DNA of 39,064 bases from Thermodesulfovibrionales bacterium (GTDB taxonomy: Bacteria > Nitrospirota > Thermodesulfovibrionia > Thermodesulfovibrionales > UBA1546): the NCBI GenBank assembly GCA_919901705.1, contig CAKKPR010000313.1, positions 1 through 39,064 of the forward strand. The letters run 5' to 3'. This document shows, piece by piece, positions 51 through 39,064 of the stretch (its first letter is position 1; each line of letters opens with the position of its first letter). The notes beneath the pieces are model-generated. The model was not told the origin of the DNA. It saw nothing but the letters and a program-made list of their open reading frames with translations, and did no database searches. The translations under genes and the position numbers were made by a program.

Positions 51-78
51 CCCCTTAGGAAAGGGGGGGTAGGGGGTT
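51..78. repeat. C-run/G-run hairpin element, copy 1
   Basis: cccctt (51-56) pairs with aagggg (61-66) across an agga loop, followed by a second G-run at 72-76. The same aaggggg-N-ggggg-tt motif occurs at 179-208 (opposite orientation) and 29440-29483. Confidence 0.5.
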
Positions 79-178
79 GTCATACCTTGCATTCATACTG
101 CCCAGCAATTGGTATTATGAAGCAAAGCCTCTGATACTATTGCATATTTTAAGATTCTTTTATGCTAATTCTTTAAAC

Positions 179-3580: not shown

Positions 3581-3692
3581 CGCAGAAGTGCAGATTCATC
3601 CTTCGCAGCGCTGCGGAGAACGGAAGTGCAGAAGTGCAGAAGCAGAGGAATTAACTTTTGAACTTTTGAACCTTTGAACTTTTGAACCTTCT
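3581..3692. repeat. Intergenic composite repeat: gaagtgca 8-mers flanking the palindrome cgcagcgctgcg, then aacYtttg 8-mers x4-5
   Basis: gaagtgca occurs at 3585-3592, 3623-3630 and 3631-3638. The 12-nt perfect palindrome is 3604-3615. aacttttg/aacctttg run in tandem from 3653 to 3692. The block fills most of the lpxA-lpxI spacer. Confidence 0.8.
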
Positions 3693-11467: not shown

Positions 11468-11549
11468 CTTGGCGTGGAATTCCGGGGACACTATACTTAA
11501 TTCCTGGCGCCGTAATTCATAATCCGCAGTATACCCGCAGCAAAAAATA

Positions 11550-11621
11550 CTATCCTATTTAAGAACCCTCAAAAAGTGCCTCAGGGATTGCCACGGGCTT
11601 TGCCCCCGCCTGAATGTCCAT
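11550..11621. repeat. Direct repeat copy A (partner at 13964-14035)
   Basis: ctatcctatt...ccctcaaaaagtgYctcagggattgccacgggctttg... aligns with the partner with about 7 mismatches over the first 59 nt. Similarity is weaker beyond that. Confidence 0.75.
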
Positions 11622-13877: not shown

Positions 13878-13963
13878 CTCTTTGCATCTCCTCTGTCAAA
13901 CATCCTGCATCGGCTTAGTAACCCATGAGGGATCGCGAGCCTGTCCCTCAATTTCTAGAATTA

Positions 13964-14035
13964 CTATCCTATTCGAAAGCCCTCAAAAAGTGTCTCAGGG
14001 ATTGCCACGGGCTTTGTCCTCGCAATGACATCAAA
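13964..14035. repeat. Direct repeat copy B (partner at 11550-11621)
   Basis: See copy A. Together the two copies bracket the ATPase plus VapBC block. Confidence 0.75.
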
Positions 14036-17367: not shown

Positions 17368-18314
17368 ATCTTTGTCCTGCTGTCTCTGTTAATCGCATCT
17401 TTAAGCATCTCCTCTATGAGCATCGGGAAATCGAGGCCTGCCAGCCTTGCAATCTTCGGGAGAAGGCTCGTCTCGGTCATACCTGGAATGGTATTCACCT
17501 CAAGGACATAAGGGTTTCCACTCTTGCCTATAATCAGGTCAACCCTTGTCGCGCCGCTGCAGCCCAGAGCTTTATGAGAAGAGAGAGCAACATCTTTTGC
17601 CTTCTTGTAGGTCCTTTCGCTTATCCCAGGAGGAAGGATATATTCAGTAAGCCCCGGAGTATACTTTGCCTCATAGTTATAAAACTCAAGAGACGGCCTG
17701 ACCTCAACTCCGCCCAGGCTCTTATCATTAAGGATTCCTATCTGGACCTCTTTGCCCTTGATATATTTCTCCACGATTATCTCCCTGCCATACTCAAAAC
17801 ATTTCTCAAGGGCAGCCTTGACCTGTTTTTTGTTTTTAATAATACTCACGCCCACACTTGAACCCTCGGATGCAGGCTTTACAACCCAGGGCAGGCTGAA
17901 ACCAACAGCTGAGAGCTGAGAGCTGAGAGCTTTTCTGCTGATAACTGCAAAAGGAGGAACAGGGATTTTGTGATAGAGAAATATTTTTTTGGATGCCTCT
18001 TTGTTCATTGCAAGCGCAGACGCAAGCACGCCGGAGCCTGTATATGGAATGCCCATCACATCCAGAAGCCCCTGTATTGAACCATCCTCGCCCCAGCCTC
18101 CGTGAAGAACAAGAAACGCCATCTCAATGCGCTCTCTTTTTAACTCCTCGCACACATTTGATGAAACATCCATTGAAACAACGTTGTATCCGAGATTTTT
18201 CAGGGCATTAAAAACAGCCTTCCCGCTTCTGAGAGAAACCTCCCTCTCAGCTGACACACCGCCCATCAGGACCCCTATTTTTTTATTTGTTAACAAAATA
18301 TCCCTCGCATTCAT
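17364..18314 (-). CDS. ddl: D-alanine--D-alanine ligase
   Basis: Motifs [30 protein letters not shown] and EVNTIPGMT. Confidence 0.95.
17907..17927. repeat. Tandem heptamer agctgag x3 inside ddl
   Basis: Read directly. The 21 nt encode part of [10 protein letters not shown]. Confidence 0.9.
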
Positions 18315-19255: not shown

Positions 19256-20672
19256 CCGCCTTTAATCTCAACCTTTTCAATATCTCTTCTCCGGCCTTCC
19301 AGACATCTCCGGCTCCCAGTGTAAAAACCACATCTCCCTGCCTCAATCTCAATAAAAGATTTTCCATTAGTTTTTCTCTAACGGAAAAATAAACAGCGCC
19401 CTCATGCCCTGCCTTTTTTATCCTGTCGATCAAAACATTGGAATTAATGCCGTCTATTGGTTTTTCGCCTGCAGGATATATGTCCATCAGATAAAGCACA
19501 TCAGCATCAGCAAAACATCCGGAAAACTCATCTATGAGGTCCCTTGTCCTTGTATACCTGTGGGGCTGAAATACGACAAACAATCTTCCGCCGTTTGTCT
19601 GCTCTCTGCGCTCTGCGCTCTGCGCTTTGTCAATCAGCCCTTCCTTTGCTGCCCTGAGCGTTGCCTTTATCTCTGTCGGATGATGTCCGTAGTCGTCAAA
19701 GACCTTCACCCCTTTTTCATCACCCTTTAATTCAAATCTCCGCTGTATTCCGCTGAACTTGTTCAAGGCCTCTTTGACCTTGCCGGTTTCCATCTTCAGT
19801 TCCATTGCAACTGCTATGCACGCAAGGCTGTTAAGGACATTGTGCAGGCCGGGCACGGGAATACTGAAATTCCCGAGATTTTTGCCCTTATGCATCACAT
19901 CAAAACTCACCGACATGAAACCTTTATTTATATCAACTGCATATATATCGGCATCAGATGAAAGTCCGTATGTTATGCACCTCCTGTGTACAGAGGGGAC
20001 AAGTCTCCGGATCTCCTCATTCTCAATGCAGACTATTGCTGCGCCATAAAATGGAACCTTGTTCATAAATGACAGAAATGCCTCTCTTAATGAATCCATC
20101 GTCTTGAAAAAATCCATATGCTCCCTGTCTATATTTGTAACAACTGCAATTGTCGGGGAAAGTTTCAGAAATGAGCCGTCACTCTCATCAGCCTCCGCAA
20201 TGAGGAAATCTCCCTGCCCCAGCCTTGCATTGCTCCCTGTAGCCATAAGCCTGCCGCCGATAACAACTGTGGGATCAAGGCCTCCATGGGCAAGCACTGT
20301 TGAGATTAAGGATGTAGTCGTTGTCTTGCCGTGAGCGCCTGCAATAAGCACACCGTATTTCATCCTTGCCAGTTCTGCAAGCATCTCAGCGCGTGGGATT
20401 ACAGGTATTGATTTCTCTTTTGCCGCAACCACCTCCGGGTTGTCTTTGGAAACAGCAGAAGAGATAACAACAACATGGGCATCATCAACATTTTCTGCCT
20501 TATGGCCGATGTATATCTTTATCCCGAGGCTGTGGAGCCTGTTAGTGGTATCGGAATCTTTGATATCTGACCCTGTTACCTCATAGCCAAGATTATGCAG
20601 GACCTCTGCGATCCCGCTCATCCCTATTCCTCCGATACCGACAAAATGGATTATCCTGTACTGTTCAAACAT
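19248..20672 (-). CDS. murC: UDP-N-acetylmuramate--L-alanine ligase
   Basis: Motifs IHFVGIGGIGMSGIAEVL, GAHGKTTTTS and FQPHRYTRT. Confidence 0.95.
   Translation of the reverse strand: MFEQYRIIHFVGIGGIGMSGIAEVLHNLGYEVTGSDIKDSDTTNRLHSLGIKIYIGHKAENVDDAHVVVISSAVSKDNPEVVAAKEKSIPVIPRAEMLAELARMKYGVLIAGAHGKTTTTSLISTVLAHGGLDPTVVIGGRLMATGSNARLGQGDFLIAEADESDGSFLKLSPTIAVVTNIDREHMDFFKTMDSLREAFLSFMNKVPFYGAAIVCIENEEIRRLVPSVHRRCITYGLSSDADIYAVDINKGFMSVSFDVMHKGKNLGNFSIPVPGLHNVLNSLACIAVAMELKMETGKVKEALNKFSGIQRRFELKGDEKGVKVFDDYGHHPTEIKATLRAAKEGLIDKAQSAERREQTNGGRLFVVFQPHRYTRTRDLIDEFSGCFADADVLYLMDIYPAGEKPIDGINSNVLIDRIKKAGHEGAVYFSVREKLMENLLLRLRQGDVVFTLGAGDVWKAGEEILKRLRLKAGG
19598..19625. repeat. Tandem heptamers tctgctc + tctgcgc x3 inside murC
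   Basis: Read directly. They encode AQSAERREQT, just upstream of the conserved FQPHRYTRT. Confidence 0.9.
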
Positions 20673-21807: not shown

Positions 21808-21873
21808 CAGTGAACAGTGAACAGTGAACAGTAAACAGTAATTACTGACACCGGCACTGACTACTGACACTGA
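21808..21873. repeat. Intergenic heptamer arrays: cagtgaa x3 plus cagtaaa/cagtaat, then ctgacNN units
   Basis: The arrays fill almost the whole murG-ftsW spacer (21800-21874). Read directly. Confidence 0.85.
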
Positions 21874-23045: not shown

Positions 23046-24521
23046 TCAGGACAAACCCCTCACAAATTCCTTAAACTGTCTGCCCCTGTCCTCAAAATCC
23101 CTGAACATATCAAAGCTTGCGCACGCAGGCGAAAGCAGCACCACATCCCCTCTCGATGCACACCTTCTGGAAATCATTACAGCCTCTTTAAAGTCATCAG
23201 CAAATCTGGTTTCAGTCAGGTCTCCCAAAGCCTTATTTATTTTTTCCCTTGCCTCTCCGATAAGGACAAGGGCTTTTACCCTTTCTTTTACGAGAGGCCT
23301 GAGGATAGAAAAATCGCCTGCCTTATCTCTGCCTCCTGCAATCAGGATTACAGGCTCTGAAAAACTCTCAAGTGACTTTATCACTGCTCCGACATTTGTG
23401 CCCTTTGAGTCATTGATATAATCCACGCCGTCAAGGTCCCTGACAAATTCAAGCCTGTGTTCAAGCCCCGGGAACTCCTTCAGGGTTTTAACAATTGCAT
23501 CAACGGGACATTTTGCAAGGAGAGCCATGGCCGAAGCAGCCATGGCATTCTCCAGGTTGTGAACACCTTTGATTCTTATTTCATCAGCCCTGATGAGTTG
23601 AGAGTCAGTGATACCTGAACAGACTGAACCATCTTTGAGATAAACACCTTTTACTTCCTTTTGCCGGCTGAAGAAATATACATCAGGCAATCCTGAATCT
23701 TGAAGCTTGTCTCCTCGGCGACTCGCCTGAGGCGAGAATCTTGAATCGTATAACCTCATGACTTCAGGATCATCCGCATTAAGCACAAGAAAATCCTCTT
23801 TCTTCTGATTCAAAAATACCTGCGCCTTTGCATCCCTGTATTCATCCATGGAATGGTATCTATCGAGATGGTCAGGCGTGATATTAAGAATGGTCGCGCC
23901 ATTGGGCCTGAACTCATCTATTGACTCAAGCTGAAAGCTTGATACCTCTGCGACAATATAAGCAATAGATGCATGATTCATGATGCATGATTCACGATGC
24001 ACGTTATCCTGTATCTTGTATCCTGCATCCTGCATCAGTTTCCCTATCTCCTCTGTCAGCGCATTCCCTATGTTTCCGCCAAGGATAGCCTTAAACCCAC
24101 TATTTTTAATCATCTCATAAAGCAAGGTTGTAGTAGTTGATTTTCCGTTTGTGCCAGTTACGGCTAAAAACTCTGTGCGCTCTGCTCTCTGCCCTTTGCT
24201 CTCTCTTATAATCTGATATGCAAGCTCGAGTTCACCGATAATCTTTATGCCTGCATCTTTTGCCTTTTTCAAAGGCGGAATATCTAACGGAACGCCCGGG
24301 CTTATCACTATCAAATCCGTATTCTTAAATATCCCGTCAGGATGGCCGCCCAGGGCAAGCCTCACAGAGGGCAAAAGCCTCTCAACAAATTCTATTAATT
24401 CCCCTTTTGATTTCTTATCAGTAACTGTCACTTCTGCGCCACTACGAGCAAGCAGATTGGCCGCCCCCGCCCCGCTCCTTGCCAGGCCGAATATGAGTAT
24501 TTTCTTGCCTTTTATTTCCAT
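23046..24521 (-). CDS. murD: UDP-N-acetylmuramoylalanine--D-glutamate ligase
   Basis: Motifs ILIFGLARSG, VTGTNGKSTT and SSFQLE. It carries three repeat-encoded segments (listed as separate features). Confidence 0.93.
   Translation of the reverse strand: MEIKGKKILIFGLARSGAGAANLLARSGAEVTVTDKKSKGELIEFVERLLPSVRLALGGHPDGIFKNTDLIVISPGVPLDIPPLKKAKDAGIKIIGELELAYQIIRESKGQRAERTEFLAVTGTNGKSTTTTLLYEMIKNSGFKAILGGNIGNALTEEIGKLMQDAGYKIQDNVHRESCIMNHASIAYIVAEVSSFQLESIDEFRPNGATILNITPDHLDRYHSMDEYRDAKAQVFLNQKKEDFLVLNADDPEVMRLYDSRFSPQASRRGDKLQDSGLPDVYFFSRQKEVKGVYLKDGSVCSGITDSQLIRADEIRIKGVHNLENAMAASAMALLAKCPVDAIVKTLKEFPGLEHRLEFVRDLDGVDYINDSKGTNVGAVIKSLESFSEPVILIAGGRDKAGDFSILRPLVKERVKALVLIGEAREKINKALGDLTETRFADDFKEAVMISRRCASRGDVVLLSPACASFDMFRDFEDRGRQFKEFVRGLS
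23690..23745. repeat. GC-rich quasi-palindromic mini-element with heptamer flanks, in-frame in murD
   Basis: The core cttgtctcctcggcgactcgcctgaggcgagaa (23706-23738) is identical to 25607-25639. It is flanked by atcttga-type heptamers on both sides. Confidence 0.85.
23968..24037. repeat. Two abutting heptamer arrays in murD: gatKcaY x5, then tgYatcY x4
   Basis: Units read directly: gatgcat gattcat gatgcat gattcac gatgcac, then gttatcc tgtatct tgtatcc tgcatcc tgcatca. The two unit types are approximate reverse complements. Confidence 0.85.
24171..24207. repeat. Degenerate ctctgcN heptamer run in murD
   Basis: ctctgtg cg ctctgct ctctgcc ctttgct ctctctt. It encodes SKGQRAERTE, just before the P-loop VTGTNGKSTT. 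The unit is related to the murC array. Confidence 0.6.
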
Positions 24522-24525
24522 ATCC

Positions 24526-25665
24526 TTAACTGAAAAGTCCGGAAGCGCTGAAGGCCTCCGCCCTTATGCTTTTCTGTTCTCCTTTTTTCCCGATCTTCTT
24601 AGCTTCCGCGCCTTTACGTTTCCGGCCTTCCACCACTGTTGCCTGAGCCTTTTTTGATTTTTTCTTTGCTAAGGCCTTTGCATACTTTGATTTCTTACCC
24701 CTGGAATTTTTTTTGTATGCTGCCTTCCCGGCAGGCTTCGTGTAATCCGCTTTTGTAAAGTAAATAACCGGCTGCCCGTCGCGTGCTATAACATCAAAAC
24801 CTTTTCCCTCCAGTTGTTCTGCCTCATCCCATAGCATCTTTCTGCTTGGCGCTCCCAGAATAGCAACGATTACTGTCTCGCCTTCTCTTTTCCCTGCATA
24901 TACAAAGCAATGCCTTGCTAATCTTGTGTATCCTGTCTTGCCGCCAACTGCTCCTTCATCAGACCACAAAAGCTTGTTCGTATTCTCAAGTGAGATTGTC
25001 CTGCCCTCAGATGTTGATATATCTGCTTCTCTGGTGCCGATAATCTCCCTTATCACCGGATATTTGAGGGCGTGCCTGAGTATTTTCGCAAGGTCGTATG
25101 CTGTTATCTGCTGCCCTTTTCCAGGAAGCCCTGTTGCATTTATAAACTTTGTGTCAGACGCGCCAATCGCAGCAATTTTCCTGTTCATAAGTTCCACGAA
25201 CTTTTCTTCTGAGCCGGCAACATGTTCTGCAAGCGCGAAGGCAGCGCCATTGGCTGACCTCAGAAGCGCAGCATAAAGCAGTGTCTCGACAGTCACGGTC
25301 TCGCCTGGCTTAAACCTGGTCCCTTTTATCGAGGGCACTTCTGCCGCCATCTCGCTTATTGTTACAGTCTCATTCAGCCGGGCCCTGTCAAGCACAACCA
25401 TTGCTGTCACAAGTTTTGTTGTGCTTGCAGGAGGCAGTCTTAGATTGGGATTTTTCGCAAAAAGGACCCTGCCGGTAGAAGCCTCCATTGCCAGCGCAGC
25501 CTTTGATTTTATTTCATCAGCAGAGACAAAAGTTGCAAACTGCAAGCTGCAAGCTGCAAGCAAAAACAAAATAAGTTTACCCGCATTTCTGGCTTGAAAC
25601 TTGAAACTTGTCTCCTCGGCGACTCGCCTGAGGCGAGAAACTTGAAACCTTCTTTTCATAATCAC
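24526..25665 (-). CDS. D-alanyl-D-alanine carboxypeptidase (S11, PBP5/6-like) with a Lys-rich C-terminal tail
   Basis: SxxK (ASTTK), SxN (SAN) and KTG (GGKTGYT) motifs, plus a signal-peptide-like [19 protein letters not shown]. The last ~70 aa are strongly K/R-rich. Confidence 0.85.
25534..25561. repeat. Tandem heptamers tgcaaac + tgcaagc x3 inside the carboxypeptidase signal-peptide region
   Basis: Read directly. They encode [10 protein letters not shown]. Confidence 0.9.
25591..25647. repeat. GC-rich quasi-palindromic mini-element with heptamer flanks, in-frame at the carboxypeptidase N-terminus
   Basis: Layout is cttgaaa x2, a core identical to the murD copy (25607-25639), then cttgaaa. 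It is read in a different frame from the murD copy. Confidence 0.85.
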
Positions 25666-26744
25666 CTCAATTTCAAGGTTGCAAGGCTCAAAAGAGCCAG
25701 CATTATCCCCACTATCCAGAATCTGACTATAACCTTCGGTTCAGGCCATCCCTTCAGTTCAAAGTGGTGGTGTATCGGAGCCATCCTGAATATCCTTTTG
25801 CCTGTAAGTTTAAATGACGAAACCTGAAGCACAACTGAAAGTGTCTCTATAACGAATATTCCTCCGACAACCGCAAGCACTATTTCATGTTTTGTTATTA
25901 CAGCAAGCGTCCCGAGCGAACCGCCGAGCGAGAGTGAACCCACATCTCCCATGAACACATCGGCAGGGTATGAGTTATACCAGAGAAAACCGAGGGATGC
26001 TCCGAGCATGGCGCCGCAAAGCACGGTCAACTCTCCTGTGCCCGGAAGATACAGAACCTGCAGATATTGTGAGAACTTAAAATTACCCGAGATATAAACG
26101 AGAATGCCTGTTGCCAGCACTGCAATCCCGACAAGCCCTATGGCAAGGCCGTCAATGCCGTCAGTGAGATTAACCGCATTAGATGACCCTACAATAACAA
26201 CGACAGAAAAAGGGATATAAAACCACCCCAGGTCAAAAAGCCATTTTTTGAAGAAAGGGACGCTCAGTACAGCGCTGAAAGGGTCCTTTGGATTCATATA
26301 AAGGAACATGCCTATCATTAAGGCAAGCGATATCTGCGCCCCGAACTTATAGCAGGCGCGTAAACCTTTGGAATCCTTTTTTATAATCTTGAGATAATCA
26401 TCAATAAACCCTATTGCGCCAAAGCCCACGATGGAGAAGGCCATCACCCATATATATGCATTCGTAAGGTCGCCCCATAATAAAATAGTGATGAGTATGG
26501 AGATTATTATAAGCACGCCGCCCATAGTCGGCGTTCCTGTCTTCCCTAAATGTGTCTGCGGGCCATCATCTCTTATATGCTGGGTAACACTGAACCTCCT
26601 GAGCCTTTTTATAATACTGGGGCCGAGTATAAATGTGATAAGCATTGCCGTAATCACAGCAAGGGCGGTCCTGAATGTTATGTACCTGAAAACATTCAGA
26701 GGAGAAAACCAGTCATGTAATTTATAAAGAAGGCTATACAGCAT
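25662..26744 (-). CDS. mraY: Phospho-N-acetylmuramoyl-pentapeptide transferase
   Basis: Motifs [25 protein letters not shown] and APIHHHFE. Confidence 0.96.
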
Positions 26745-28143
26745 TTCCCGTCCCTCGGTTGCGAGTCGTATCGACTTTATTTGTTTCTAAAACCTTTTCC
26801 ATGCCCATTCCCCTTGAGCCCTTAACAAGCACCGTGTCATCCTCCCTGCAAATACCAATAAGTATTTCCCCTGCCTCCAATGCCGTAGCTGCACGAAAGG
26901 ACTGCCCTCCCTTTTTAGCAAACAGGGATTCTGCCTCTGCCATCAGGGGGCCAACTGCAATAAAAATATCTATCGGAAGCTTTGACATCCATTCTCCAAG
27001 CTTTCTGTGCGCCTCTTCAGCATAGGAACCCAATTCAAGCATATCTCCAAGAACAGCAATAGCCCTGACCTTTCTCAGCCTTACAAGTTCCTTTACTGCC
27101 TCTTCCATGGATGCAGGGTTTGCATTATACACATCGCTTATCACTGTTGCCCCGAACAGCTCTTTAATCTCAAGCCTCATCGGAACGCCTTTAAACGATT
27201 CAATGCCGGCCTTTATGGACTGCAGGTCAATCTTGAATATATCTCCCACGGATGCAGCGGCAAGCGCATTATAGATATTAAATGTCCCGGGTATTTTCAG
27301 GTTTATTTCTACCTGGCGCTCTGCGCCAAAGCACAGCAGGAAATCAGAGCCCCTGTCCCTGATATTAATATCCCTTGCAAATACATCAGCCTTATTTTCT
27401 ATACCGAATGTAACAACCTTCCCGTGATACATGGAAAGACCCTGCATAAGAAATGCATCATCTGCGCTTACTGCAACCCCCTTCACAGTATCCAGAAGCT
27501 CAAGCTTTGTGTTTCTCACAGCCTCAATGCTCCCGAACCCTTCAAGATGCCCCGGGCCTATGTTTGTCACAACCCCATAATCAGGCACAGCAATCCCGCA
27601 CAACTCTTTTATGTCTCCCTGAGCGCTTGCACCCATCTCAAGAACAATCATTTCATCCTCGTCACCAAGTTTTGTCAGGCTCAATGGAAGACCGATATGG
27701 TTATTAAGATTCCCTGTATTCTTAAGAACCCTGTATCTCGTGCCCAGAATAGATGCGATTAATTCCTTTGTCGTTGTCTTGCCGTTTGTGCCTGTTATGC
27801 CGATAACAGGTATGTTGCTTCTCATGCGCATATAGTGCGCAATATCCTGAAGCGCATTCAGGGTGTTTTTTACATAGATTATTATCTTTCCCCTCAGAGG
27901 TTCTGCAGGAGGAAAATTCACCAGTGCGCCGCTTCCTTTTTCAAGGGCCTTATAAAGAAAATCGTGGCCGTCATATTTTGAGCCCCTCAGTGCAATAAAT
28001 AGTTCGCCCTCCCTTATCGCCCTGGAATCTATGGACACACCTGTAAAGGCATGGGAATTACCGTTGCCGTAAACAACCTTCCCGCCTGTGGCCTTAATGA
28101 TATCTTCTATTGTTAAAGTTCCCATAACCTCTGTCTCAAACAT
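26734..28143 (-). CDS. murF: UDP-MurNAc-tripeptide--D-Ala-D-Ala ligase
   Basis: [13 protein letters not shown]-loop, Mur ligase middle and C-terminal domains, conserved dcw position. Confidence 0.92.
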
Positions 28144-29704
28144 TTTTAGTTCTGTCTCTTATGGCGTCTTCAAGCGCTTCCCTGTCGCTGAATTTATGCC
28201 TTATGCCCTTTATCTCCTGATAATCCTCATGTCCCTTCCCGGCAAGAAGCAATATATCCCCTGCCTCAGCGAGTTTTACAGCTTTTCTTATGGCCTCTCT
28301 CCTATCCGGTTCAATGACATAGTTCCTTCGTGAGGCCCCTGCCTCTATCTCCTTTATTATCTCCACCGGATCTTCATCTCTGGGATTGTCAGAAGTAATA
28401 ACAACATAATCGCTGAGACTTGTTGCTATCTTCCCCATTATGGGTCTTTTCCCCTTGTCCCTGTTTCCGCCGCAACCAAAAACAGTGATTATGCGTTGTT
28501 GTCTGACTTCTGACTTCCCGCCTCGGCGGGTCGCCGAAGGAGACTGACTTCTGACTTCTGAACTTTTCATGAGCTCCCTTGCCGTGTATATCAGCCTTTC
28601 GAGCGCATCTTCTGTATGCGCATAATCAACTATGCACAGGAAGTCCTGGCCTGCATCAACCTTTTCAAATCTGCCTTTCACGGAACTCATTTTTCTTATG
28701 CCGTCAATTATCACATCCCATGGGACATTGAGGCTGACGGCAGCGCCTGCCGCAGAAAGTATATTGTAGACATTGTGCATGCCTATCAGGGAAGACTTGA
28801 CGCCATGGACTCTGTCTCTAAATTTAATATCAATAACAAGCCCTTCAAAGGAGTCTTTTATATTCACCGCAGCCATGTCTGCGCCCGTTTCGAGCCCGTA
28901 TGTAAGGACCTTCCCGCTGATATCCCCGATTAATTTTCTTCCCCAGACATCATCATAATTTATTACAGAAGTCCCCTCTTTTGAGAGAATCTCTTTGAAT
29001 AATCTTTCTTTTGCCCTGAAATAATCCTCCATTGTCGCGTGAAAATCCAGATGGTCTCTAGTCAGATTTGTAAAAACTGCCACATCAAAATTAGTATAAT
29101 CAACCCGCCGTTGTGCAAGGGCATGTGATGACACCTCTGTTACAACATGACTGCATCCCGATAAAAGCATCTCACTCAGCATCGCCTGGAATTCAGGGGC
29201 TTCAGGCGTGGTATGAGGCGCATCATAATGTCTGCCTTTCACAATGTAACTGATTGTGCCTATGAGGCCAACCTCTTTCCCCCATGCTTCCAATATTGAT
29301 TTAAGCAGATAGGTCGTCGTTGTTTTGCCATTTGTGCCTGTGACACCTATTATTGCCAGTTCATCAGAAGGCCTTTCATAAAAATTATTGGAAATGTATG
29401 CCAAAGCCTTTCTGCTGTCATTGACACGGATGAAAACCACCCCCCCTTCAATCCCCCCCTTACTAAGGGGGGGCTGTGGGGGGTACTGACTGCTTACTGC
29501 TTTTTCATACACTACCGCAGACGCCCCTTTTTTGATCGCATCATTGATAAAACTATGGCCGTCAACTTTTTCCCCTTTCACCGCGATAAAAACATCTCCC
29601 TGTTTAACCTTCCTTGAATCATAGGCAACCCCTATGACATCAACATCAGCGCTGCCTGTCATCTCTTTTATCTCCATATCTTTTATAAGCATCTTCAATT
29701 TCAT
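28136..29704 (-). CDS. murE: UDP-MurNAc-L-Ala-D-Glu--2,6-diaminopimelate ligase
   Basis: Motifs [23 protein letters not shown] and DNPR. It carries two repeat-encoded segments. Confidence 0.93.
   Translation of the reverse strand: MKLKMLIKDMEIKEMTGSADVDVIGVAYDSRKVKQGDVFIAVKGEKVDGHSFINDAIKKGASAVVYEKAVSSQYPPQPPLSKGGIEGGVVFIRVNDSRKALAYISNNFYERPSDELAIIGVTGTNGKTTTTYLLKSILEAWGKEVGLIGTISYIVKGRHYDAPHTTPEAPEFQAMLSEMLLSGCSHVVTEVSSHALAQRRVDYTNFDVAVFTNLTRDHLDFHATMEDYFRAKERLFKEILSKEGTSVINYDDVWGRKLIGDISGKVLTYGLETGADMAAVNIKDSFEGLVIDIKFRDRVHGVKSSLIGMHNVYNILSAAGAAVSLNVPWDVIIDGIRKMSSVKGRFEKVDAGQDFLCIVDYAHTEDALERLIYTARELMKSSEVRSQSPSATRRGGKSEVRQQRIITVFGCGGNRDKGKRPIMGKIATSLSDYVVITSDNPRDEDPVEIIKEIEAGASRRNYVIEPDRREAIRKAVKLAEAGDILLLAGKGHEDYQEIKGIRHKFSDREALEDAIRDRTKNV
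28503..28564. repeat. GC-rich quasi-palindromic mini-element with ctgactt heptamer flanks, in-frame in murE
   Basis: Layout is ctgactt x2, core cccgcctcggcgggtcgccgaaggaga (28517-28543), ctgactt x2, then ctgaact. The core aligns best with the murD/dac core in reverse complement. Confidence 0.8.
29440..29483. repeat. Nested C-run/G-run hairpin element in-frame in murE
   Basis: Inner stem ccccccctt (29453-29461) / aaggggggg (29465-29473) with loop act. An outer C-run (29440-29446) faces a G-run (29478-29483). The element encodes YPPQPPLSKGGIEGGV. Confidence 0.8.
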
Positions 29705-31444: not shown

Positions 31445-31816
31445 TTAGGGTTCAGATAACCGCCTCCCATCTCGTTGCGAGTCGCTTCCGACAAGAGACG
31501 CTTTATATGGTGTAACTCCCTTTTCCTTCTTTACATAAATCACTTTTACCCTGTCGGGAAAAACCAATCCGACTTTCCCATCCCCGGTATCTTTGACATT
31601 CTGGATAGACAGCAGGCTTGCCTTCTCTGCCATAAGCATCTTTCTCTCTTTAAGGGTTTCCATCCTCTTATTATCAAGCTGGGCAATGCTGTACTCGACT
31701 GTCCTTACGCTTGACCTGAGCCATACAATCGAGAAAATTCCGAATAAAAGAAGCGCCACTGCCAAAGGGATTAAGACAAAAGAAAAAATACCTCTGTGAC
31801 GATGCGCATGGGTCAT
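31445..31816 (-). CDS. ftsL: Cell division protein FtsL (by position and architecture)
   Basis: Small bitopic protein (IFSFVLIPLAVALLLFGIFSIVWL) with a coiled-coil-like segment. It sits between rsmH and ftsI with an ATGA overlap with rsmH. Confidence 0.7.
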   Translation of the reverse strand: MTHAHRHRGIFSFVLIPLAVALLLFGIFSIVWLRSSVRTVEYSIAQLDNKRMETLKERKMLMAEKASLLSIQNVKDTGDGKVGLVFPDRVKVIYVKKEKGVTPYKASLVGSDSQRDGRRLSEP

Positions 31817-34678: not shown

Positions 34679-34767
34679 AAAGTTTTACCTCCCTTCTTGC
34701 CACATTCAAATTCAGAAGTCTATCTTTTGAATAGCTCTCCTCATAAGTCCCAGCGTAGACGGCACAG

Positions 34768-34842
34768 GGATAGGTCTTGTTTCTATCATTCCGCATTTTT
34801 CAGTCAAATCAACTCCTTCCCATTTGACACTCACTGCTCCCC
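34768..34842. repeat. Island repeat, copy 1 (about 75 nt)
   Basis: gggataggtcttgtttctatcattccgcatttttcagtcaaatcaactccttcccatttgacactcactgctcccc aligns with 36146-36211 and 39017-39064. Confidence 0.85.
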
Positions 34843-36103: not shown

Positions 36104-36145
36104 CCATTGTCAGGCTTGACTATTGATATTTGAGAACGCCTAAAT

Positions 36146-36211
36146 GGCCCGATTCTTGTTTCTTGCATCCCACATTTTCCAGTCAAATCAATTTGTCCCT
36201 CACTGCTCCCC
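36146..36211. repeat. Island repeat, copy 2 (about 66 nt)
   Basis: ggcccgattcttgtttcttgcatcccacattttccagtcaaatcaatttgtccctcactgctcccc. It lacks about 9 nt relative to copy 1. Confidence 0.85.
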
Positions 36212-39016: not shown

Positions 39017-39064
39017 AGGGCCAGGTCTTGTTTCTTGCATCCTACATTTTTCAGTCAAATCAAT
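39017..39064. repeat. Island repeat, copy 3 (truncated by the window end)
   Basis: gggccaggtcttgtttcttgcatcctacatttttcagtcaaatcaat aligns with copies 1 and 2 over all 48 visible nt. Confidence 0.85.

What the first reader, a model, noticed from the sequence alone, without database searches (positions are those of the whole stretch)
23690..28564. GC-rich quasi-palindromic mini-element with tandem heptamer flanks sits in-frame inside murD, the dcw carboxypeptidase and murE
Seen in the sequence:
- The 33-nt string cttgtctcctcggcgactcgcctgaggcgagaa is identical at 23706-23738 (murD) and 25607-25639 (carboxypeptidase N-terminus).
- With the cttgaa-type heptamers on both sides, about 57 nt align at roughly 87 percent identity.
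- The two copies are translated in different frames ([10 protein letters not shown] in Mur[12 protein letters not shown] in the carboxypeptidase), so the conservation is at the DNA level, not the protein level.
- murE 28503-28564 has the same architecture: ctgactt x2, core cccgcctcggcgggtcgccgaaggaga, then ctgactt x2-3.
- The murE core aligns best to the others in reverse complement. Because the core is quasi-palindromic, orientation is ambiguous, and the peptide (SPSATRRGGK) is similar either way.
- Every core can fold around ggcga-c-tcgcc or tcggcg-ggt-cgccga.

From my recollection of E. coli Mur ligases, the MurE copy adds about 20 residues just before the conserved FGCGG(N/D)RDKGKRP motif.

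Inference: this is a small mobile or recombinogenic palindromic element that is tolerated in-frame in essential genes, comparable in principle to the Rickettsia palindromic elements. A hairpin bracketed by direct repeats also recalls translational bypass elements (T4 gene 60, yeast mitochondrial byps). The frames stay open here, so bypass is not required.
Basis: partly seen in the sequence, partly recalled or inferred. Interest (0 to 1): 0.8.

Follow-up and report, generated by a model that had tools for sequence, protein, structure and literature searches.

The report
27-base mobile hairpin inside essential genes
A 27-base hairpin-forming DNA element that lands inside runs of 7-base repeats has inserted in-frame into three cell-wall genes of a Nitrospirota bacterium; it is the first counterpart outside cyanobacteria of their "very small mobile repeats", so the unknown enzyme that moves such elements can now be sought by comparing two phyla.

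Summary
An exactly 27-nt GC-rich element (TCTCCTCGGCGACTCGCCTGAGGCGAG and close variants) lies at 23710-23736 in murD, 25611-25637 in the S11 peptidase and 28517-28543 in murE (opposite strand). Each copy splits a short tandem heptamer array.

It belongs to a dispersed family. I found 78 copies in genome contigs from about 25 Thermodesulfovibrionia/Nitrospirota MAGs and 96 more in metagenome contigs. None turned up in cyanobacteria or viral contigs.

Nearly every copy is exactly 27 nt, follows a G and usually precedes an A. About half sit in 7- or 8-nt arrays with many different units; the rest sit in loops of other palindromic repeats.

Relatives 93-96% identical in DNA have clean empty sites at all three window positions. 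They differ by exactly 27 nt, with no target-site duplication. Across genes the element is read in all six frames, and it lies in poorly modelled loops of housekeeping enzymes.

The best reading is a selfish, non-autonomous mini mobile element that is translated, not bypassed. Its architecture matches the small dispersed repeats (SDRs) of Nostocaceae and resembles Rickettsia palindromic elements in outcome. The mobilising enzyme is unknown. I class it as a new member of a known kind, of moderate to high interest.

The parts
23710..23736 (+). Element copy A, 27 nt (TCTCCTCGGCGACTCGCCTGAGGCGAG), antisense to murD. It is read as SPQASRRGD, MurD residues 263-271.
   Evidence: (51.6 bits). The empty orthologous site is in L071 and the filled site is in L072 and L073.
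23691..23756 (-). Host heptamer array in murD. The coding-strand unit is ATTCAAG, giving RLYDSRF...KLQDSG. Copy A splits it between ATT and CAAG.
   Evidence: L071 carries four uninterrupted ATTCAAG units at the same place.
25611..25637 (+). Element copy B, 27 nt and identical to copy A, antisense to the S11 peptidase gene. It is read as RLRRVAEET, residues 9-17, in the n-region of the signal peptide.
   Evidence: The site is empty in L078 and filled in L077.
25593..25649 (-). Host heptamer array at the peptidase N-terminus. The coding-strand unit is GTTTCAA. Copy B splits it between GTTT and CAAG.
28517..28543 (-). Element copy C, 27 nt variant (TCTCCTTCGGCGACCCGCCGAGGCGGG), in the sense orientation in murE. 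It is read as SPSATRRGG, residues 388-396.
   Evidence: (48.4 bits). The site is empty in L075 and in proteins P0123 and P0124.
28496..28567 (-). Host heptamer array in murE. The coding-strand unit is AAGTCAG, giving KSSEVRSQ...KSEVRQQ. It lies just before the FGCGG motif.
23046..24521 (-). murD, the host gene. It has three lineage-specific loop insertions.
24526..25659 (-). S11 D-Ala-D-Ala carboxypeptidase, a host gene. NCBI annotates the start at MKRR.
28136..29704 (-). murE, a host gene.

Best explanation
The feature is a family of ultra-small, non-autonomous mobile DNA elements, each exactly 27 nt long and forming a bulged GC-rich hairpin.

Shown:
- A copy is inserted as a clean 27-nt block between a G and, usually, an A, with no target-site duplication.
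- Preferred targets are short tandem arrays of 7- or 8-nt units (consensus AAKYYWG, cut G^A) and the loops of other palindromic repeats.
- Because 27 is a multiple of three and five of its six frames lack stop codons, copies that land in tolerant surface loops, interdomain linkers or N-terminal regions survive. They are simply translated as a 9-residue hydrophilic insert.
- Presence or absence differs between genomes that are 93-96% identical.

Inferred:
- The three window copies are such survivors. Homologous recombination between lineages also moves whole array-plus-element segments.
- Movement is catalysed in trans by an enzyme not encoded in the window. I think a hairpin-recognising single-strand DNA enzyme of the HUH/Y1 type, acting like IS200/IS605 or RAYT proteins, is most likely. 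An RNA-mediated route, as proposed for the cyanobacterial elements, is the alternative.
- The element has no host function.
For: Family and specificity:
- 78 copies occur in window plus loci L001-L075, and 96 non-redundant copies in metagenome contigs.
- 171 of these 174 are exactly 27 nt. Two of the three exceptions look like chance matches in GC-rich DNA.
- The left flank is G in 77/78 and 96/96 copies. The right flank is A in 61/78 and 84/96.

Targets:
- After removing the 27 nt, the 7- or 8-nt periodicity runs straight across the junction in 37-45 of 78 copies. More than 20 different array units are involved.
- The remaining copies lie at loops of other hairpin repeats, with nesting three layers deep.

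Empty versus filled sites, each differing by exactly 27 nt:
- murD: L071 versus L072, L073 and the window.
- murE: L075 versus the window, 93.4% identity over 15 kb.
- Peptidase: L078 versus L077 and the window, about 96% identity.

No protein-level function:
- All six reading frames are used across genes.
- The same DNA is read as RLRRVAEET in the window and SPQASRRGD in L077, because of a 1-nt indel upstream.

Tolerated positions:
- The residues have no counterpart in solved MurD or MurE.
- In the AlphaFold MurD model, pLDDT averages 56-60 over residues 261-280 and falls below 50 at 267-275. The element peptide is 263-271.
- Other copies lie in a P-type ATPase, Dxs, AroA, UbiD, GuaA and a TrpE-like enzyme, mostly between or at the edge of Pfam domains.

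Other points:
- Hairpin: -12.8 kcal/mol as RNA, z = -2.2. One covarying pair shows UA 14, CG 8, UG 1.
- No Rfam family matches the window, and the copies are not terminator-like.
Against: - No transposase, HUH enzyme or reverse transcriptase is in the window. None was linked to the family, so the catalytic step is pure inference.
- Copy number is modest, 1-10 exact copies per MAG. Very few diverged copies exist. This could also fit a constrained functional motif.
- At the murD site the element sits in the same unit of the array in four lineages that are only about 70% identical in protein. That needs shared ancestry plus precise loss, recombination, or an unexplained unit preference.
- The murD segment of the window is a recombination mosaic. 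Some of the spread is therefore not transposition.
- Structural covariation rests on a single base pair.
Confidence: 0.8

Rival explanations
1. The element is not independently mobile. It arose once and spreads only as a passenger of homologous recombination or gene conversion that exchanges whole array-bearing segments (loop cassettes) between genes and lineages.
For: - Copies A and B share 52 nt at 94%, including their heptamer flanks.
- MurD and MurE loop cassettes are distributed against the gene phylogeny.
- The window and L078 are 96% identical, yet a segment of about 190 nt in murD is replaced by one resembling a clade of 72% identity.
Against: - The same 27-mer sits in arrays with more than 20 different units and in unrelated genes. 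There is no flanking homology beyond G and A.
- Empty and filled sites differ by exactly the 27 nt, while the flanks are 93-100% identical.
- Copies are also nested in the loops of other repeats.
Confidence: 0.1
2. The hairpin is a selected cis-acting signal in the dcw operon and elsewhere. Possible roles are an RNA stabiliser or processing site, a translation pause site, or a protein-binding site.
For: - The sequence is almost invariant across species whose MurD proteins are only 60-75% identical.
- The hairpin is stable.
- Three copies cluster within 5 kb of one operon.
Against: - Presence varies among relatives of 93-96% identity.
- Both orientations occur relative to transcription, and all six frames are used.
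- The element is not conserved at orthologous positions.
- No Rfam family matches, and there is no terminator-like tail.
- A diverged copy persists at the same murD site in L074.
Confidence: 0.06
3. It is a translational bypass or recoding element. The hairpin, bracketed by direct repeats, is skipped by ribosomes as in T4 gene 60.
For: The direct heptamer repeats flanking a stable hairpin look superficially like matched take-off and landing sites.
Against: - All coding copies are open and keep the frame, because 27 nt is a multiple of three.
- No stop codon follows a take-off codon.
- The element is read in six frames in different genes.
- Relatives lacking the element have the same flanks joined directly.
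Confidence: 0.02
4. It is an assembly or chimeric-read artefact that created identical strings in neighbouring genes.
For: The window comes from a metagenome-assembled genome. Identical 33-mers lie 1.9 kb apart.
Against: - The same insertions occur in independent assemblies from NCBI, ENA and JGI samples.
- In total 174 copies were found across two collections.
Confidence: 0.01

Closest known systems
Small dispersed repeats (SDR1-8) of Nostoc punctiforme and other Nostocaceae (Elhai et al. 2008, Genome Res 18:1484). The paper is not held here. I rely on my recollection of its abstract and on its description in PMC5861425 and PMC3116915.
   Same: - Size is in the 21-27 nt range.
- The family is dispersed and multi-copy.
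- Copies are embedded in tandem heptamer arrays and nested within other repeats.
- Copies have a predicted hairpin.
- Presence or absence differs between related genomes, which is taken as evidence of recent mobility.
- A second, 21-nt family is present in this window too.
   Different: - The phylum differs: Nitrospirota/Thermodesulfovibrionia rather than Nostocaceae.
- A scan of all GTDB species genomes with the pattern found no cyanobacterial copy. PMC5861425 states that SDR-like repeats were not found outside Nostocaceae.
- The sequences of SDR1-8 were not available for comparison.
- Copy number per genome looks lower here.
- Occupation of essential-gene loops is very prominent here.
Rickettsia palindromic elements (RPEs; Ogata et al. 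2000, summarised in PMC10969869)
   Same: These are selfish palindromic repeats inserted in-frame into unrelated housekeeping genes. They are tolerated at positions compatible with the protein fold.
   Different: - RPEs are about 100-150 bp and encode a conserved peptide in a preferred frame.
- The element here is 27 nt and is read in all six frames.
- It targets heptamer arrays.
- It occurs in a free-living anaerobe lineage.
REP/REPIN elements with RAYT (TnpA-like HUH Y1) proteins, and IS200/IS605 'peel and paste' transposition
   Same: - These are short imperfect palindromes with bulges, presumably recognised as single-strand hairpins.
- There is no target-site duplication.
- Insertion occurs next to a short target sequence.
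- Seamless empty sites are found.
   Different: - REPs are extragenic and carry a conserved GTAG head.
- REPINs are doublets.
- No RAYT or TnpA gene was found or linked here.
- The target here is only G^A in arrays and loops.
Tandem heptamer arrays of cyanobacteria (STRR) and the TAACTGA arrays of Beggiatoaceae, Cyanobacteria and Bacteroidetes (PMC4679880)
   Same: Short tandem arrays of 2-6 heptamer units are abundant. There are 150 period-7 arrays in 579 kb here against 7 in shuffled sequence.
   Different: - Here 86 different units occur.
- Many arrays are inside coding sequences, including a signal peptide.
- The arrays serve as landing pads for mini-elements.
- The TAACTGA arrays are mostly intergenic, and a regulatory role was proposed for them.

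Membership tests
Cyanobacterial small dispersed repeats (SDR) | Unit length 21-27 nt | tested here: met
   171 of 174 copies are exactly 27 nt. The second family is 21 nt.
Cyanobacterial small dispersed repeats (SDR) | Embedded within tandemly repeated heptamers | tested here: met
   37-45 of 78 genome copies and 44 of 96 metagenome copies interrupt 7- or 8-nt arrays in phase.
Cyanobacterial small dispersed repeats (SDR) | Nested insertions within other copies or other small repeats | tested here: met
   Copies lie at the loop edge of the repeat TTCGCCTCGGCG^AATCCGCCTGAGTGCGGAA. That repeat is itself nested in CCCCTCTTT...AAAGAGGGG. Tandem copies occur in L009.
Cyanobacterial small dispersed repeats (SDR) | Common hairpin supported by compensatory changes | tested here: inconclusive
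   Two alternative hairpins are 97-99% paired. Only one pair covaries: UA 14, CG 8, UG 1, with 0 of 500 shuffles reaching the score.
Cyanobacterial small dispersed repeats (SDR) | Recent mobility shown by presence or absence at orthologous sites | tested here: met
   Three sites have exact 27-nt differences between genomes of 93-96% identity.
Cyanobacterial small dispersed repeats (SDR) | Sequence belongs to one of SDR1-8, and the host is in the Nostocaceae subgroup | tested here: not met
   All hits are in Nitrospirota-type MAGs and none in Cyanobacteria. The first 50 kb of N. punctiforme pNPUN01 has heptamer arrays but no such insert. The SDR1-8 sequences themselves were not available.
Rickettsia palindromic elements | In-frame insertion in unrelated housekeeping genes | tested here: met
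   Hosts are MurD, MurE, an S11 peptidase, a P-type ATPase, Dxs, AroA, UbiD, GuaA and a TrpE-like enzyme.
Rickettsia palindromic elements | About 100-150 bp, encoding one conserved peptide | tested here: not met
   The element is 27 nt, and six different peptides arise from six frames.
REP/REPIN with RAYT | Extragenic location, GTAG head, linked RAYT gene | tested here: not met
   About half the copies lie inside long ORFs and there is no GTAG. No such gene is in the window. The genomes as a whole were not searched.
MITE | Terminal inverted repeats plus target-site duplication; derived from an IS | tested here: not met
   There is no duplication at three empty/filled pairs, only a 1-nt boundary ambiguity. 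No parent IS was identified.
Translational bypass element (T4 gene 60 type) | Matched take-off and landing codons, a stop after take-off, and a non-translated gap | tested here: not met
   Every coding copy has an open frame and no stop. The gap is a multiple of three and is read in different frames in near-identical relatives.
IS200/IS605-like single-strand transposition (mechanistic analogy only) | A Y1 HUH transposase acting on subterminal hairpins | not testable with these tools
   The hairpin, the lack of duplication and the seamless empty sites fit. No enzyme could be sought genome-wide.

The most novel reading that the evidence does not exclude
The heptamer arrays and the mini-elements are both products of one dedicated, still unknown enzymatic system. 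It would be shared, or exchanged, between Thermodesulfovibrionia and Nostocaceae.

This system would continually rewrite tolerant loops, linkers and even signal peptides of essential proteins. The effect would be a DNA-level cassette diversification mechanism rather than mere junk insertion.

Three observations are consistent with this reading but do not show it:
- Array units change in concert at one site: ATTCAAG becomes ATTCAAA in every unit of L074.
- Signal-peptide cores are coded by different arrays in genomes of 96% identity.
- Identical cassettes appear at the same loop in distant lineages.
Probability: 0.12. Interest if true: 0.85.

Novelty: new member of a known kind. Interest (0 to 1): 0.6.

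Why it matters
Very small mobile repeats that target heptamer arrays were known only from one cyanobacterial family. Their mechanism has been open since 2008.

A second, unrelated phylum with the same architecture makes the question tractable:
- Genes shared by carriers in both phyla but absent from non-carriers are candidates for the mobilising enzyme.
- The exact 27-nt substrate and its G^A target can be tested in vitro.

The finding also has practical and evolutionary consequences:
- Essential cell-wall enzymes in this lineage carry fast-turnover DNA-level insertions. These affect gene calling, orthology, alignment and protein-length statistics for Nitrospirota MAGs.
- It is a natural experiment on which protein loops tolerate random 9-residue inserts.

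Tried and rejected
- **Rfam:** a scan of the window at gathering thresholds gave no match.
- **Viral contigs:** the element pattern gave no hit.
- **Elhai 2008:** the paper could not be retrieved by DOI or PMC id. Comparison with SDR1-8 therefore rests on memory and on citing papers.
- **Nitrospirota literature:** searches for prior descriptions of heptamer arrays or palindromic in-frame elements in Nitrospirota or Thermodesulfovibrio found nothing. One badly framed search was wasted.
- **Nostoc punctiforme plasmid pNPUN01:** the first 50 kb has heptamer arrays, including GGAGTCA-type units like some here, but no interrupted array. I did not fetch the rest.
- **Intrinsic terminator reading:** rejected, because the 27-mers are not called by the terminator scan.
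- **"Orientation ambiguous" reading:** rejected by covariance-model scores.
- **Strand bias:** the side of the bulge correlates only weakly with local GC skew and is confounded with coding strand. I draw no conclusion from it.
- **Technical failures:** a neighbour-joining tree timed out and was replaced by average-linkage clustering. One Pfam call failed on wrong coordinates.
Full report
**1. The observation**

Reading the three places confirms the finding.
- The 33-nt string CTTGTCTCCTCGGCGACTCGCCTGAGGCGAGAA is identical at 23706-23738 and 25607-25639.
- The repeat finder extends this to 52 nt at 94% (D5).
- The 19-nt core occurs twice in the window against 0.01 expected from dinucleotide shuffles.
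- The third copy lies at 28517-28543 on the other strand, between CTGACTT units.

All the genes are on the minus strand:
- murD: 23046-24521
- an S11 D-Ala-D-Ala carboxypeptidase: 24526-25659
- mraY: 25662-26744
- murF: 26734-28143
- murE: 28136-29704

The element-coded peptides are SPQASRRGD (MurD 263-271), RLRRVAEET (peptidase 9-17) and SPSATRRGG (MurE 388-396).

**2. It is a dispersed family**

I scanned one genome for each of 185,579 species with the pattern TCTCCT N0-1 CGGCGACYCGCC N0-1 GAGGCG.
- The scan returned 70 loci. Nearly all come from about 25 Nitrospirae/Thermodesulfovibrionales MAGs, with 1-10 loci per MAG.
- One 'Nitrospinota' MAG carries proteins about 80% identical to those of a Nitrospirae MAG at the same kind of locus. 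One 1.7-kb 'Ignavibacteriaceae' contig also matched. There were no cyanobacteria.
- The same pattern found 115 stretches in metagenome contigs and none in viral contigs.
- A covariance model built from the variants finds only the three copies in the window. They score 51.6, 51.6 and 48.4 bits, against about 9 bits in reverse orientation.
- The model finds only about seven additional diverged copies in 518 kb of loci. The family is therefore strikingly homogeneous.

**3. Anatomy**

- Of 174 copies, 171 are exactly 27 nt.
- The pattern allowed 26-28 nt in total. In practice exactly one of the two optional positions is filled. The hairpin CCTCGGCG-ACY-CGCC(N)GAGG therefore always carries one bulged base, on either its 5' or its 3' arm.
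- The base before the element is G in 77/78 and 96/96 copies. The base after is A in 61/78 and 84/96.
- The 27-mer folds at -12.8 kcal/mol as RNA, with z = -2.2.
- An alternative 3' hairpin, CYCGCC-NGA-GGCGRG, is the only one with a covarying pair: UA 14, CG 8, UG 1 among 25 distinct sequences, with 0 of 500 shuffles reaching the score. The long hairpin is 99% paired but invariant. Structural support is therefore modest.

**4. Targets**

- When the 27 nt are removed, a 7- or 8-nt periodicity runs across the junction in 37-45 of 78 genome copies and 44 of 96 metagenome copies.
- The host units differ from locus to locus: AAGTCAG, AATCTTG, TATCCTG, AGTTCGG, AGTTTGG, ACCCTTTG, AAGCGCGG and others.
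- They share the form A-A-K-Y-Y-W-G. Positions 4 and 5 are pyrimidines in 30/30 arrays, and G is last in 30/30.
- The other copies sit at the 5' edge of the loop of another GC-rich hairpin repeat, TTCGCCTCGGCG^AATCCGCCTGAGTGCGGAA. In several loci that repeat lies in the loop of a CCCCTCTTT...AAAGAGGGG palindrome.
- Heptamer arrays are hugely enriched in this lineage: 150 period-7 and 60 period-8 arrays in 579 kb, against 7 and 13 after shuffling. There are 86 different heptamer units and 2-6 copies per array. The loci were chosen around element copies, so roughly a third of the arrays are there by ascertainment.

**5. Empty and filled sites**

*murD.* On the coding strand, L071 reads GATTCAAGATT^CAAGATTCAAGATTCAAGATTA. 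L072, L073 and the window carry CTCGCCTCAGGCGAGTCGCCGAGGAGA at the caret. L071 and L072 are 93-100% identical around the site.

*murE.* L075 is 93.4% identical to the window over 15 kb. It has an uninterrupted AAGTCAG array and lacks exactly 27 nt. Proteins P0123 and P0124 read MKSSEARSQ-KSEARQQ, where the window has the extra SPSATRRGG. Distant relatives have a minimal loop, ARGLTKGK-IITVFGCGG.

*Peptidase.* L078 reads GTTTCAAGTTT^CAAGTTTCAGG. L077 and the window are filled. The three genomes are about 96% identical.

None of these sites has a target-site duplication. The boundary is defined to within one base, a G.

A 1-nt indel upstream makes the same DNA read as RLRRVAEET in the window and SPQASRRGD in L077. 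Across 22 ORFs examined, all three frames in both orientations are used.

**6. Tolerance in proteins**

- Alignment to solved MurD (3lk7) leaves gaps at three window segments. One of them is the element with its array.
- In MurE, residues 379-398 fall between two aligned blocks that abut in the PDB chain.
- An AlphaFold model of the window MurD has mean pLDDT 82. It has pLDDT below 50 at residues 167-182, which are heptamer-coded, and 267-275, which overlap the element peptide.
- Elsewhere the element lies in a P-type ATPase nucleotide-binding domain, between the transketolase-like domains of Dxs, in AroA, UbiD and the GuaA amidotransferase domain, and between the two domains of a TrpE-like enzyme.

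**7. Dynamics**

- Between the window and its relatives of 93-96% identity, essentially every indel of 6 nt or more in the dcw cluster falls in a heptamer array or a mini-element.
- Loop contents of MurD and MurE are distributed against the gene tree. P0002 is 95% identical to the window, yet has a different MurD hotspot-2 cassette that it shares with distant clades.
- The window shares its murD array-plus-element segment with a clade of about 72% protein identity. Local DNA identity there is 0.86-0.91, against about 0.75 elsewhere.
- Homologous recombination therefore also moves these segments.
- L074 has a diverged 27-mer at the same murD and peptidase positions. There every array unit has changed from ATTCAAG to ATTCAAA, which points to concerted evolution of the array.

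**8. Mechanism**

Shown:
- The insertion is precise and independent of flanking sequence.
- It lies at G^A in arrays and loops, with no duplication.
- Turnover is recent.
- Frames stay open.

Inferred:
- The element is non-autonomous and moved in trans. The window holds no transposase.
- The bulged hairpin, the absence of duplication and the seamless empty sites are what IS200/IS605 and REP/RAYT systems produce on single-stranded DNA. That is my preferred guess.
- By my recollection, an RNA intermediate was proposed for the cyanobacterial SDRs. It cannot be excluded.
- I found no evidence for a host function. The elements are not terminator-like, match no Rfam family, occur in both orientations, and are not conserved at orthologous sites.

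**9. Comparison with known systems**

- The closest match is the small dispersed repeats of Nostocaceae. These are 21-27 nt, sit in heptamer arrays, are nested, form hairpins and are recently mobile. This rests on my recollection of Elhai et al. 2008. PMC5861425 states that no SDR-like repeats were found outside Nostocaceae.
- The present family meets the architectural criteria but is in another phylum, and no cyanobacterial copy exists. It is an analogue, or a new family of the same kind, rather than a member of SDR1-8.
- Rickettsia palindromic elements (PMC10969869) share the outcome of in-frame insertion in housekeeping genes. They do not share the size, the single reading frame or the target.
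- Heptamer arrays themselves are known from cyanobacteria and Beggiatoaceae (PMC4679880).
- I found no prior description for Nitrospirota.

**10. Verdict**

I class the finding as a new member of a known kind. Interest is about 0.6: a specialist would be surprised to see the cyanobacterial heptamer-array and mini-element system in Thermodesulfovibrionia, sitting in murD, murE, murF, an ftsL-like ORF and a PBP signal peptide. It also offers a comparative route to the unknown mobilising machinery.

Noticed in passing
window 31472-31492 (-) and 26756-26776 (-): A second mini-element family, 21 nt long (GTCG-N3-4-CGACTCGCAAC(C)GA), is inserted in the ftsL-like ORF and at the 3' end of murF. L075, the only close relative covering the ftsL-like site, lacks that copy; L075, L077 and L078 (93-96% identical) all lack the murF copy. 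Eight copies occur in window plus loci, and none is flanked by heptamers.
   Followed up: partly
window 29465-29491 (-): A 27-nt C-rich insert (AGTCAGTACCCCCCACAGCCCCCCCTT) gives MurE the residues PPQPPLSKGG. It is absent from L075 and from proteins P0248 and P0249. It belongs to the CCCCC...GGGGG palindrome type that yields 'PPLxKGG' peptides in many relatives' MurD and MurE loops.
   Followed up: partly
window 17907-17931, 19598-19626, 23958-24035, 24171-24206, 25530-25561, 21808-21873, 3623-3687: Tandem heptamer arrays without any element lie inside ddl, murC and murD (two sites). One also lies in the hydrophobic core of the peptidase signal peptide (GCTTGCA x4 gives LAACSLQFA). Intergenic arrays lie between murG and ftsW, and octamer arrays between lpxI and lpxA. 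Relatives of 96% identity encode the same signal-peptide core with different arrays: CACTGTT or ACTTGTC.
   Followed up: partly
window about 23570-23760, and MurD/MurE loops in general: Loop cassettes are shuffled relative to the gene phylogeny. The window's murD segment resembles a clade of about 72% protein identity, while genome L078, 96% identical overall, has a different cassette there. This looks like a recombination mosaic or cassette exchange.
   Followed up: partly
L074:2979-4454 and L074:1784-2974: A distant relative has diverged 27-mers at the same murD and peptidase positions. Every unit of the murD array has changed from ATTCAAG to ATTCAAA, which suggests concerted evolution of an array inside a coding sequence.
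   Followed up: partly
window 11545-11609 and 13959-14023: Direct repeats of 65 nt (88% identical) bracket a 2.4-kb module encoding a DUF4143 AAA ATPase and a PIN-domain protein, next to ftsZ. This may be an inserted mobile or toxin-antitoxin module.
   Followed up: no
window 34766-34812, 36145-36191, 39017-39063: A conserved box of about 45 nt (GGTCTTGTTTCTTGCATCCCACATTTTTCAGTCAAATCAA) lies 40-140 nt upstream of three consecutive minus-strand genes: a DUF5677 protein, a YhcG PD-(D/E)XK nuclease and an unknown. It could be a shared promoter or operator, or a cassette boundary.
   Followed up: no
window 51-80 and 177-206: An inverted repeat of the CCCCCTT...AAGGGGG type has 96 nt between its arms, at the start of the window. 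It is the same palindrome type that hosts nested elements in other loci.
   Followed up: no
L077, at the position orthologous to window about 19597 (murC): A 57-nt palindromic element (GGGAACTGTCCC...GGGACTGTCCCC) is inserted in the TCTGCGC heptamer array of murC in a relative of 96% identity. Arrays therefore receive several kinds of element.
   Followed up: no
all element copies (window, L001-L075): The side of the hairpin bulge correlates weakly with local GC skew. The 3'-bulge form is 42:18 on the C-rich strand and the 5'-bulge form is 8:12. This is confounded with coding strand and stop-codon avoidance.
   Followed up: partly
cluster members P0241-P0245 (sibling contigs of the window's murD): In other assemblies of the same population murD is called as 2-3 fragments of 143-211 aa. 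One fragment pair breaks near YFFSRQKEVKG and another fragment ends near DRYH. This could be frameshift errors or real frameshift variants.
   Followed up: no
L076 (N. punctiforme pNPUN01) 933-2001 versus L011:3137-3165: The Nostoc plasmid carries GGAGTCA/AGTCAGA heptamer arrays whose sequence (GAGTCAGGAGTCAGGAGTCAGAAT) is identical to the array flanking the element in a Thermodesulfovibrionales MAG. This may be a coincidence or a shared heptamer repertoire.
   Followed up: no
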